From a virus: 64,000 bases of DNA. The stretch lies in the IMG/VR virus record IMGVR_UViG_3300033141_005269, positions 13,416 through 77,415 of that record, one strand, 5' to 3'. This document shows, piece after piece, positions 27,332 through 29,531 of this stretch (position 1 is the first letter of the stretch; each line of letters opens with the position of its first letter). The notes under the pieces are model-generated. The model was not told the origin of the DNA and searched no databases. It saw nothing but the letters and a program-made list of their open reading frames with translations. The translations under genes were made by a program, and so were the position numbers.

Positions 27332-29531
27332 TTAATTTTCGTTATTGATTTCAACTTTGACGTAAACCCATCCTTGAGGCATTGGGTCTGGTCGTTGACC
27401 AGTTGAAACTAATACCGCGACAGAAGCCTTACTAGCAACATCTGAAAGTAATTGTTGAGTTTCCTCGTTATCCCAATCATAGATGTAAAAATCCGAGAAA
27501 ATCACTACAATGTCCTTTGAACGCATTAAATTAATAACTCGACGTAGAACCGGAGCGACTTCAGTACCTCCGCCGCCACGAATATGCGAAATTACCTTCT
27601 CGATTACGTCTTGTTGAGTTCGCCCTTCAATTGTTTCGTAAGCCGAAGAATCCCAGCAGATAACCGTAAATTCACATTTCCTCGCGATAGAATAAAGCTC
27701 TGTCATAGCTTGCGTGATTTCCGTATCAGACATCGAGCCACTCATATCTGGCAAGAAGAACACCTTGGGAATTGTATACCTGATTATCCCTGGCAACGCT
27801 GGATGCTTGCGAGATGCTCGCCGATAACTTGAAACAACGGTTTTCCCAAGCCCAGTCATTATCGCTTGTCGAAGAATTGTTTCCCAGCTTACTTTCGAGT
27901 GTAGCATGCGGTCAATAACTCGTTTAAGTCCAGCTGGAACAGTACCCGCTAACTTCTGCGTGGAATAAGCTCGAATAACCCGGTCTCGCCATTTCTGCTC
28001 GAGGTCGTCTTCGGAGTTTTCTTGATTGTAAATTTCGGGGTCGCCTTCCTGCAAGACTTTGCCTTCGAGGTTATCATCGCCTTTGAGGTCATGAGTTAAT
28101 CCATCTTCAATTTCATCGATTGGAATTTCAATCCCTTGTCCACCAGAACCTTTTTCGAACTGAACTTGTGAAGTCCACTCATGACCACAAGAATCACATT
28201 TGAATTTAGCTTCGCCGTATTTAACTGAAAACTTCTTGATTCGAATTTGTTTGCTGCCACAAGCCGGGCATTTTGGAGCTCCGCCTGAAGGCATAGAAAT
28301 TTTTGGGATTAAATCGTAAATTTCCTCTTTGCTCATTTTAGCTAAATCCTCTTCGTTATACTGAAACTTTTTGAAGAAATCATAGAACGCATTGAAAAAC
28401 CGACGAATTGTCCAAGTCAGTCCGCTGAGCTGATATGGCGTTCGCAAGAAATCATCAATCATATCGTTGTTTAAAGAGTTTTGACTCGCATATATCGCCA
28501 TATTTTCTTATTATTTCTTTTCCTAAACTAAATTGGAATTCTGGATTTCGTTCTTGCCCCTGTTTATGCAGTTCCTTAAGAGCCCAGAAAATCCATTTAA
28601 TTTCATCGGTTTCCCATGTCAAATTTCTAAGACGCTGTTTGCCTCGAATTTGAATCAAACGGTAAACTAGAAGGGCTTGAGGTTTTTTGATTATAAGAAA
28701 AGGAATTATTTGTTCTAAAATTGATTTTGAGCGAAACCAACTGACACATTCAAAGTTTAAATATAGATCTACTCCTTTGCCACGCTTTCTTCTTATTTTT
28801 CTGATTTTGAAACCAAATTTTCTTGAGATTTCTTTTCCAAAAAGGCTACTTTGTGTTATTCTAATTACAGGATGAGGGTATCGCTTGCCATTGACATTAC
28901 TAAAGGTGATGGAAATCGTTCCATCTCCATCTATTAGTCCAGCTAAATAAGCTCTTTCGGTTTCTGAAAAGAGTTTTTCCTTGTCGATCCACCGTTTTTT
29001 CCAAATGTCTTCCATTGTCAATCTTCCGCTTAAACCTTTTCTATCAAGGAAACCTTTCAAAGTTGTCCAACGACAACCTAATTGTTTTGCAATATCATCT
29101 AATTTCATTACTCGATAATTTTCAAGAACGAATTTCTCCCGCTCGGGAGTCCAGAAAACCCGCTTTGATTTCATCTTATATCAAGAAATTATTACATAAA
29201 TTCCCTAATAAGCCTTTCCTTTTGGCGACATAATGCGATCTGTCACAAGATTCCACATGAAATGATTTCGATGACCTGCTCGTTTGGCATCTCGGAAAGC
29301 AATATGCATTGTCTCATGTGCGAGAAGCCATGCTTTAGCATCAGATTGCAGATTAGCCCAGAATTTGGGATTAATTGCCATGATATCGTTTCGAGTTACT
29401 CCAGCAGTAGGCACATCTTCGCTTAAGATTATGCGAACCCGGCGAAGTAAGCTTGAGATGAATGGAGCCACGACTGTTAAGGCTGAGCTAAACTCATCAT
29501 AATCCTTTTTAATTCGCTCGAATAAATCCAA
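27332..29531 (-). CDS. Metallopeptidase (HExxH, DUF2201-like)-VWA protein, spliced: exons 29531-29240 and 28479-27332 (479 aa)
   Basis: LAHETMH; joined WNLVTD^SLNNDMI; internal Zn ribbon CPAC/CDSC; MIDAS DMSGS, GGGGT, FSDFY. Exon sum 1440 nt. Confidence 0.88.
28455..29174 (-). CDS. Intron-encoded HTH + LAGLIDADG homing endonuclease
   Basis: N-terminal WTPERE..DDIAKQLG HTH; AYLAGLIDGDG; PFLIIKKPQA. Confidence 0.9.
   Translation of the reverse strand: MKSKRVFWTPEREKFVLENYRVMKLDDIAKQLGCRWTTLKGFLDRKGLSGRLTMEDIWKKRWIDKEKLFSETERAYLAGLIDGDGTISITFSNVNGKRYPHPVIRITQSSLFGKEISRKFGFKIRKIRRKRGKGVDLYLNFECVSWFRSKSILEQIIPFLIIKKPQALLVYRLIQIRGKQRLRNLTWETDEIKWIFWALKELHKQGQERNPEFQFSLGKEIIRKYGDICESKLFKQRYD
28480..29239 (-). 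mobile_element. BHB intron (760 nt) encoding a homing endonuclease
   Basis: UGAC-AG^A-UCGCAUUAUGUCGCCA ... UGGCGAUAUAUGCGA-GUCA-AA^A. Confidence 0.9.

What the first reader, a model, noticed from the sequence alone, without database searches (positions are those of the whole stretch)
28455..29239. Endonuclease ORF whose stop codon is reached only after intron circularisation, using 759 of 760 nt
Seen: the ORF starting at 29174 has no stop before the 3' splice site. On the ligated circle it continues ...CESK-SHYVAKRKGLLGNLCNNFLI-TAA (29178-29176), ending one nucleotide before its own ATG, for 252 aa. The unspliced precursor gives a different 239-aa C-terminus. Established: excised archaeal introns circularise, and the I-DmoI intron ORF reads across its circle junction. 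Twenty open codons could also be chance.
Basis: partly seen in the sequence, partly recalled or inferred. Interest (0 to 1): 0.7.

Follow-up and report, generated by a model that had tools for sequence, protein, structure and literature searches.

The report
Endonuclease gene overrunning a viral intron
An archaeal tailed virus carries a tRNA-type (bulge-helix-bulge) mobile intron with a homing-endonuclease gene inside a protein-coding gene. The endonuclease reading frame does run past the intron's 3' end, but nothing shows that it must be read on the circular intron.

Summary
The arithmetic is right. ATG 29174 opens a frame with no stop before the 3' splice site. On a 760-nt circle it would give 252 aa and stop at TAA 29178-29176. 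On unspliced RNA it gives 239 aa and stops at TGA 28457-28455.

The intron is well supported:
- Thirty-six uninterrupted homologues fix the join at WNLVTD|SLNND.
- An unconstrained fold puts a 4-bp helix, a 3-nt bulge and a 15-bp inner stem exactly there.
- No group I or II signal was found.
- Relatives of the same gene carry similar introns at other sites.

The claim "stop only after circularisation" is not supported:
- A stop lies 8 codons into exon 2.
- Twenty-one open codons are within chance (0.13-0.40).
- All three leader frames are fairly open.
- The three sibling intron endonucleases in this genome stop inside their introns.
- A sister assembly has a 74-nt deletion that changes the frame at the junction.
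- The ATG has no Shine-Dalgarno (SD) ribosome-binding sequence but has a TATA-like box upstream.

Most likely the enzyme is made from unspliced RNA, and the circle ORF is a possible by-product. The scan had noted this same stretch before, but only on this genome.

The real novelty is the context: an endonuclease-bearing BHB intron inside a viral protein-coding gene.

The parts
29240..29531 (-). Exon 1 of the DUF2201_N metallopeptidase / VWA gene. It starts at TTG 29531, which follows a GGAGG, and ends ...HETMHIAFRD...WNLVTD.
   Evidence: Pfam DUF2201_N positions 13-93. Alignment with 36 uninterrupted homologues. The spliced translation is open for 479 aa.
28480..29239 (-). 760-nt bulge-helix-bulge intron. 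Placing it at 29238..28479 gives the same products.
   Evidence: Removing it restores WNLVTD|SLNNDMI with no gap against the homologues. The BHB lies in that exact register. No group I or II hit even at E<=10.
27332..28479 (-). Exon 2: the rest of the metallopeptidase domain, a zinc ribbon and the VWA domain.
   Evidence: Pfam DUF2201_N positions 94-261, plus weaker matches below Pfam's own cut-offs to the VWA-like DUF2201 and VWA_CoxE domains. Homologues.
29242..29245 (-). Central 4-bp helix, 5' strand UGAC (exon 1). It pairs with GUCA 28485-28482.
   Evidence: Present in the unconstrained MFE fold of the 861-nt precursor, pair probabilities 0.85-0.90.
28482..28485 (-). Central 4-bp helix, 3' strand GUCA (near the intron's 3' end).
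29239..29241 (-). 5' bulge AG|A. The cut after its second nucleotide is the 5' splice site.
   Evidence: Unpaired in the MFE fold, between the 4-bp helix and the inner stem. The cut position equals the join defined by homology.
28479..28481 (-). 3' bulge AA|A, the 3' splice site. It is not closed by an outer helix (only G29246-C28478), so the motif is the relaxed HBh' form.
29223..29238 (-). Inner stem, 5' arm (UCGCAU-U-AUGUCGCCA). On a circle it would also encode SHYVAK.
   Evidence: It pairs with 28500-28486: 15 bp with one bulged U. Pair probabilities are 0.79-1.0 except U29233-A28491 at 0.49; A29231-U28492 and U29230-A28493 are in the MFE fold but their probabilities were not computed. The stem is kept in the circular fold.
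28486..28500 (-). Inner stem, 3' arm. It lies within the endonuclease codons ...YGDICE.
   Evidence: All but U28500 is retained in the sister allele that carries the 74-nt deletion.
28455..29174 (-). Endonuclease ORF as read on unspliced RNA (239 aa plus TGA). It has an N-terminal part aligned with the HTH regions of the sibling enzymes and a single LAGLIDGDG motif. The last 8 codons and the stop overlap exon 2.
   Evidence: PDB phmmer matches I-MsoI: residues 69-208 align to I-MsoI 7-147, E 8.8e-11 for the tandem construct and 9e-5 for the single chain. The Pfam LAGLIDADG_1 and _3 hits fall just below threshold.
29176..29239 (-). Intron leader. If the circle were translated it would supply the last base of the junction Lys codon, 20 further codons (SHYVAKRKGLLGNLCNNFLI) and TAA 29178-29176.
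   Evidence: Chance estimate.
29189..29200 (-). TATA-like TTTATGTAATAA, 15-26 nt upstream of the endonuclease ATG. This is a candidate internal promoter and is inferred only.
   Evidence: Read from the sequence. There is no SD before this ATG, although many other genes have GGAGG-like motifs.
28500..28573 (-). 74 nt that are missing in a sister assembly (76,608 bp).
   Evidence: Deleting exactly these bases reproduces P0038 letter for letter; it was the only solution among the deletion endpoints scanned. The deletion removes the exon-2 ATG 28501 (P0046 starts at MIDDFL) and shifts the endonuclease frame at the splice site.

Best explanation
The 760 nt at 29239..28480 (minus strand) form a mobile archaeal-type bulge-helix-bulge intron. 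It sits in the metallopeptidase-VWA gene of a 77-kb tailed archaeal virus. The host's splicing endonuclease and RNA ligase would remove it (inferred), which restores WNLVTD|SLNND. The intron is almost filled by a single-motif LAGLIDADG homing-endonuclease gene, which would drive homing into intron-less alleles (inferred). That ORF has no stop inside the intron. It is most probably translated from RNA that is not spliced. That RNA could be a transcript started at a TATA-like box inside the intron, which would lack the 5' half of the splice motif. It could also be the unspliced pre-mRNA, where the exon-1 frame stops 31 nt before the endonuclease ATG, which is in the same frame. Either way the ORF ends at TGA 28457-28455, 8 codons into exon 2, giving 239 aa. 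The 252-aa frame that closes on the circle is a real arithmetic property and could be read if ribosomes load on the circle. It shows no sign of selection and is not needed to terminate the protein.
For: Intron:
- Thirty-six uninterrupted homologues place the join with no gap.
- The unconstrained fold gives the 4-bp helix, the 3-nt bulge and the 15-bp stem at that register.
- Only 19 of 160,000 nearby registers meet the same criteria, so p is about 2e-4 for the two registers the homology allows.
- There is no group I or II signal.
- The ORF fills 95% of the insert.
- Four sibling BHB introns lie in the neighbouring ATPase gene.
- Relatives of this gene carry BHB introns at three other sites. 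L035 and L040 share one site and have different but complementary inner stems.
- The sister allele loses the exon-2 ATG but keeps the splice motif.

ORF end:
- A stop lies 25 nt into exon 2.
- The open leader frame is within chance, 0.13-0.40.
- The sibling endonuclease ORFs stop 8-20 nt inside their introns.
- The siblings end about 50 residues earlier in the alignment, and the tail lies beyond the part that aligns to I-MsoI.
- The sister allele shifts the junction frame.
- None of the four endonuclease ATGs has an SD, whereas many other genes have GGAGG-like sites. TATA-like boxes lie upstream of them.
Against: - There are no RNA data of any kind, so splicing, the circle, the transcription start and the protein end are all unobserved.
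- The splice motif lacks an outer helix, so it needs a splicing endonuclease of relaxed specificity, and the host is unknown.
- The internal promoter rests on motif resemblance only.
- The start codon is predicted to be accessible on the circle.
- Ending in exon sequence makes the mobile element depend on its host gene for a stop, whereas the circle is self-contained.
- The relative intron in L029 and L038 also overruns its 3' splice site, although its ORF is frameshifted.
Confidence: 0.6

Rival explanations
1. The endonuclease is translated from the excised, ligated intron circle. The frame crosses the ligation junction and ends at TAA 29178-29176, giving a 252-aa protein that the DNA does not encode collinearly.
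For: - The frame is open and closes just before its own ATG.
- Excised BHB introns circularise, and ORF-bearing rRNA intron circles are stable (PMC3326292).
- The D. mobilis circle is reported as the template for a 194-aa endonuclease (PMC11724312).
- The start codon is predicted to be unpaired on the circle.
- A stop carried by the element itself would make it independent of exon sequence (inference).
Against: - Openness is within chance, and all three leader frames are fairly open.
- There is no SD for internal initiation, and a circle cannot use 5'-end-dependent (leaderless) initiation (established knowledge).
- The sibling introns place their stops inside the intron.
- The sister allele changes the frame at the junction.
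- The tail lies outside the conserved endonuclease core.
Confidence: 0.14
2. The endonuclease gene is a decaying passenger that is no longer expressed or no longer active, so where its frame ends has no biological meaning.
For: - One of four assemblies carries a frameshifting 74-nt deletion in it.
- It has no close homologue among 5.8 billion proteins.
- Its Pfam scores fall below threshold.
- The related intron in L029 and L038 has a frameshifted endonuclease ORF.
Against: The ORF is intact for 239 codons in three assemblies. LAGLIDGDG keeps its acidic residues, and the core aligns to I-MsoI over 140 residues.
Confidence: 0.12
3. There is no splicing. A free-standing endonuclease gene landed in the gene and split it into two separately translated halves, or simply inactivated it.
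For: Exon 1 ends with a stop 11 codons into the insert. Exon 2 has an in-frame ATG at 28501.
Against: - A BHB lies exactly at the borders.
- The split falls inside the conserved WNxVxD-xxNN motif of one domain.
- ATG 28501 is deleted in the sister allele.
- ORF-less inserts of 22-65 nt that shift the frame, with the same motif, occur in the neighbouring gene and in relatives. An endonuclease landing cannot explain those.
Confidence: 0.05

Closest known systems
I-DmoI intron of the Desulfurococcus mobilis 23S rRNA gene, and the Pyrobaculum and Aeropyrum rRNA introns
   Same: It is a protein-spliced BHB intron almost filled by a LAGLIDADG homing-endonuclease gene. Its excised intron forms a stable circle that is reported as the template for the enzyme (PMC11724312, PMC3326292).
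   Different: The host gene there is an rRNA gene of a cell, not a protein-coding gene of a virus. I-DmoI has two motifs and is monomeric, whereas this enzyme has one motif (I-CreI / I-MsoI type) plus an N-terminal part that aligns with the sibling enzymes' HTH regions. From memory, the 194-aa ORF fits inside the roughly 620-nt intron, whereas this ORF overruns the 3' splice site.
cbf5 pre-mRNA intron of Crenarchaeota, and the HVO_1309 5'-UTR intron of Haloferax volcanii
   Same: These are BHB introns in messenger RNAs that the tRNA splicing endonuclease removes (PMC2738675, PMC7714728).
   Different: They are 16-46 nt long and carry no ORF. As of 2020 they were described as the only mRNA cases (PMC7714728). 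This intron is 760 nt, carries an endonuclease gene, lies in a virus, and has four more introns in the adjacent gene.
Group I introns with homing endonucleases in phage protein-coding genes (T4 td with I-TevI; Pf-WMP3 DNA polymerase with I-PfoP3I, PMC3428280)
   Same: They are mobile introns inside viral protein-coding genes, and the endonuclease gene is expressed separately from the host gene.
   Different: Those are self-splicing ribozymes. This insert has no ribozyme core, no U at the 5' splice site and no terminal G.
Junction-spanning ORFs of eukaryotic circRNAs (for example circ-ZNF609, PMC5387670; review PMC11724312)
   Same: The stop codon is met only after the frame crosses the ligation junction, which gives a circle-specific C-terminus.
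   Different: Those arise by spliceosomal back-splicing and use IRES- or m6A-driven initiation. Here translation of the circle is only a possibility.

Membership tests
Archaeal bulge-helix-bulge intron | A 4-bp central helix with a 3-nt bulge 3' of it on each strand | tested here: met
   UGAC 29245-42 pairs with GUCA 28485-82. The bulges are AGA 29241-39 and AAA 28481-79. The helix and the unpaired 5' bulge appear in the unconstrained MFE fold; the 3' bulge follows from the scan register, which leaves only a 1-bp outer helix.
Archaeal bulge-helix-bulge intron | Both flanking helices present (the strict hBHBh' form) | tested here: not met
   The inner helix is 15 bp, but the outer helix is only G29246-C28478. 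This is the relaxed HBh' form, which by established knowledge requires an alpha2-beta2 or epsilon2 type splicing endonuclease.
Archaeal bulge-helix-bulge intron | Cuts after the second nucleotide of each bulge give the functional exon join | tested here: met
   The join WNLVTD|SLNND matches 36 homologues with no gap. Chance of a BHB in that register is about 2e-4.
Archaeal bulge-helix-bulge intron | Cleaved by EndA and ligated by RtcB, with the intron released as a circle | not testable with these tools
   No sequencing run was listed. The virus encodes neither enzyme, so the host's enzymes would have to act.
LAGLIDADG homing endonuclease (single-motif, I-CreI / I-MsoI type) | A LAGLIDADG helix with a conserved acidic residue, and the alpha-beta-beta-alpha-beta-beta-alpha core | tested here: met
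   The motif is YLAGLIDGDGT. Residues 69-208 align to I-MsoI 7-147, E 8.8e-11 for the tandem construct and 9e-5 for the single chain. The Pfam hits score 19.4-19.5 bits, below the cut-offs of 22.5-23.1.
LAGLIDADG homing endonuclease (single-motif, I-CreI / I-MsoI type) | Cleaves the intron-less allele | not testable with these tools
   This needs an enzyme assay.
Group I (or group II) self-splicing intron | A conserved ribozyme core; U before the 5' splice site and G at the intron's 3' end | tested here: not met
   No Rfam hit at the gathering threshold or at E<=10. Exon 1 ends in G and the intron ends in A. Only 65 nt of the insert lie outside the ORF.
ORF completed by RNA circularisation | The junction-crossing frame is open beyond chance and kept in relatives | tested here: not met
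   p is 0.13-0.40. The sister allele shifts the frame. The three sibling ORFs stop inside their introns.
ORF completed by RNA circularisation | An initiation signal that can be used on a circle | tested here: inconclusive
   There is no SD before the ATG, but the ATG is predicted to be unpaired on the circle. SD-independent internal initiation exists in archaea (established knowledge).

The most novel reading that the evidence does not exclude
The endonuclease is made from the ligated intron circle. Its last 20 residues and its stop codon are then read from the intron's 5' leader after the ribosome crosses the RtcB ligation junction. That would be a protein not collinear with the viral DNA, and the first ORF in the archaeal or viral world known to be completed by protein-catalysed RNA circularisation. 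It would make the mobile element independent of exon sequence for termination.
Probability: 0.13. Interest if true: 0.8.

Novelty: new variant of a known kind. Interest (0 to 1): 0.45.

Why it matters
The papers I could read describe BHB introns in messenger RNAs only as tiny, ORF-less inserts: cbf5 and one haloarchaeal 5' UTR. They describe endonuclease-bearing BHB introns only in rRNA genes. Here an endonuclease-bearing BHB intron interrupts a conserved catalytic domain of a viral protein. The adjacent gene holds four more such introns, and environmental relatives of the same gene carry introns at other sites. This suggests that the tRNA-splicing machinery services a population of mobile introns in viral protein-coding genes.

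For the specific claim, the locus is a clean test case for whether archaeal ribosomes translate intron circles. The two routes give distinguishable C-termini, LFKQRYD and SHYVAK...NNFLI. At present the circle route is only a possibility.

Tried and rejected
- Alternative splice registers. A U...G group I-like join (TDRIQNSLNN) and a join using the GCAU/AUGC helix (TD-YASQNSLNN) are both in frame. Each adds 3-5 residues that none of the 36 homologues has, so both were rejected.
- Group I or II intron: no Rfam signal.
- Genome-wide BHB scan: thousands of hits, the same as in shuffled sequence, so it was uninformative. I replaced it with a register-specific null.
- Close relatives of the endonuclease: none in viral contigs, in GenBank phages or in the 5.8-billion protein set apart from its own alleles. 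No homologous intron was therefore available to test conservation of the circle frame.
A pattern specific to the deletion found nothing in viral contigs. Its alleles were inferred from proteins P0038 and P0046.
- Sequencing runs: none was listed, so read laying could not be used.
- Primary I-DmoI papers: not held.
- Exact look-up of the exon-1 protein failed, probably because of its TTG start.
- The weak RAGATH-33 hit (24 bits against a 120-bit threshold) was treated as noise.

Full report
**What the record is.** The window belongs to a 77,415-bp IMG/VR virus record with direct terminal repeats. It encodes a large terminase, a Mu-like portal and an ATP-dependent DNA ligase, and has no tRNA or Rfam hit. 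The closest named homologues of the gene studied here come from Methanomethylicaceae and Nitrososphaerota MAGs. It is therefore best read as a tailed archaeal virus. Everything below lies on the minus strand.

**The observation.** ORF 29174..28455 is 239 aa. Taking 29239..28480 as a 760-nt circle, the same frame reads ...CESK-SHYVAKRKGLLGNLCNNFLI and stops at TAA 29178-29176. That is 252 codons plus the stop, 759 nt.

**The host gene and the join.** The flanking ORFs are two halves of one gene. The first matches Pfam DUF2201_N (a putative metallopeptidase with HExxH) at positions 13-93. The second matches positions 94-261, followed by weaker, sub-cutoff matches to a VWA-like domain. Thirty-six uninterrupted homologues read WNxVxD[SAGC][IV]NN with no gap. 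Removing exactly 760 nt gives WNLVTD|SLNNDMI and an open 479-aa frame that starts at TTG 29531, downstream of a GGAGG. Two other in-frame joins that I tried add 3-5 residues that no homologue has.

**The kind of intron.**
- An unconstrained fold of the 861-nt precursor pairs UGAC 29245-42 with GUCA 28485-82 and leaves AGA 29241-39 bulged.
- It continues into a 15-bp inner stem, 29238-23 with 28500-486. Pair probabilities are mostly 0.8-1.0 across a distance of about 745 nt.
- Cutting after the second nucleotide of each 3-nt bulge gives exactly the join defined by homology.
- Only 19 of 160,000 neighbouring registers satisfy the same criteria.
- The outer helix is a single G-C pair, so this is the relaxed HBh' form.
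- There is no group I or II signal even at E<=10. The ORF fills 95% of the insert. Exon 1 does not end in U and the intron does not end in G.
- The virus encodes neither EndA nor RtcB, so host enzymes would have to act. This step is inferred.

**Support from relatives.**
- The adjacent MoxR-type ATPase gene holds four inserts with the same architecture: 32475..31871, 31615..31007, 30937..30071 and the 22-nt 29994..29973. Each has A-rich bulges and an in-frame join.
- In metagenome contigs, homologues of the metallopeptidase-VWA gene carry BHB inserts at three other positions. These are 686 nt with a LAGLIDADG ORF (L029, L038), 65 nt (L024, L037), and 35 and 43 nt at one shared site (L035, L040). 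In the last pair the inner stems differ in sequence but remain complementary.
- Four assemblies hold this virus. In one of them the endonuclease protein P0038 is reproduced letter for letter by deleting 28573..28500. That deletion removes the only ATG that could start exon 2 on its own, and P0046 starts at MIDDFL. It keeps the splice motif. This argues for splicing and against a split gene.

**The endonuclease.** It carries YLAGLIDGDGT. Residues 69-208 align to I-MsoI 7-147, so it is a single-motif enzyme of the homodimeric type. Its N-terminal part aligns with the helix-turn-helix regions of the three sibling enzymes (the HTH Pfam hits are for two of those siblings). It has no close homologue anywhere apart from its own alleles.

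**Is the circle needed to end the ORF?** The evidence says no.
1. Any unspliced RNA ends the ORF at TGA 28457-28455, 8 codons into exon 2.
2. Twenty-one open codons occur in 13% of shuffled leaders and in about 40% of genome windows. The other two leader frames are open for 10 and 15 codons.
3. The three sibling endonuclease ORFs stop 8-20 nt inside their introns.
4. The siblings end about 50 residues earlier in the alignment, and the disputed tail lies beyond the I-MsoI-like core.
5. The sister allele enters the junction in another frame. On a circle it would read ...RVK-IALCRQKERLIREFM*.
6. None of the four endonuclease ATGs has an SD, while many other genes have GGAGG-like sites. TATA-like elements lie upstream: TTTATGTAATAA at -26..-15 and CTTATTAG at -38..-31.
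   - A transcript starting inside the intron would lack the 5' half of the BHB. It could not be spliced and would end in exon 2. This step is inferred from motifs only.
   - A circle has no 5' end for leaderless initiation.

- BHB introns do circularise, and ORF-bearing rRNA intron circles are stable (PMC3326292, PMC7714728).
- The D. mobilis circle is cited as the template for its endonuclease (PMC11724312).
- The ATG is predicted to be unpaired on the circle.
- A stop carried by the element itself would free it from dependence on exon sequence.
- The L029/L038 intron ORF also overruns its 3' splice site by 9 codons, although that ORF is frameshifted.
- I could not verify the statement that the I-DmoI ORF crosses its junction.

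**Comparison and verdict.** The element works like the endonuclease-bearing BHB introns of crenarchaeal rRNA genes, but it sits in a viral protein-coding gene. The literature I could read lists only cbf5 and one 5'-UTR intron as mRNA cases, both of them tiny and ORF-less (PMC2738675, PMC7714728).

I put the intron itself at about 0.85-0.9. The full explanation, including translation from unspliced RNA, is at 0.6. Translation of the circle as the working route is at about 0.13-0.14. The locus is chiefly valuable as a directly testable case.

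Noticed in passing
window 29558-32848 (minus strand): The adjacent MoxR-type ATPase gene is cut by four BHB inserts: 32475..31871 (605 nt), 31615..31007 (609 nt), 30937..30071 (867 nt) and 29994..29973 (22 nt). Three of them carry HTH plus single-motif LAGLIDADG ORFs that stop 8-20 nt before the 3' splice site.
   Followed up: partly
L029:381-1066 and L038:1468-2153: There is a 686-nt BHB intron (GCTG[AA|A]...CAGC[AA|A]) at a different site (TVPAGLK|RLVD) of a homologous gene. It carries a frameshifted LAGLIDADG ORF that also runs 9 codons past its 3' splice site. 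Its 5' arm GCTTATTAG recurs at window 29213-29205.
   Followed up: partly
L035:333-367, L040:441-483, L024:142-206, L037:4498-4562: These are ORF-less BHB micro-introns of 35, 43 and 65 nt in homologues of the same gene, and they shift the frame. L035 and L040 share one site and one central helix (CACG/CGTG) but have different, complementary inner stems.
   Followed up: partly
window 27332-28573 (sister assembly of 76,608 bp, seen only through proteins P0038 and P0046): Besides the 74-nt deletion in the endonuclease gene, the sister allele of exon 2 lacks 18 residues (within GQGI-EIPIDEIEDGLTHDLKGD-DNLEGK). It also has a different, longer C-terminus after ...PMPQG.
   Followed up: partly
protein P0009 (JGI contig of 3,286 nt, not fetched): This homologue begins at VNHLL..., two residues after the position where the window's intron sits. 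Its gene may therefore be interrupted at the same site.
   Followed up: no
L013:4689-4702: The closest environmental homologue (60-68% identity) changes reading frame at about residue 320 with no insert. This could be a frameshift or a sequencing error.
   Followed up: no
window 7-2076 (+): A 689-aa ORF has an internal LAGLIDADG_3 domain (residues 169-219). It may be an intein-containing protein.
   Followed up: no
window 38000-40000: This is a GC-rich island (0.47 against about 0.39 for its surroundings). Other notes of this scan flag it as structured RNA or BHB cassettes.
   Followed up: no
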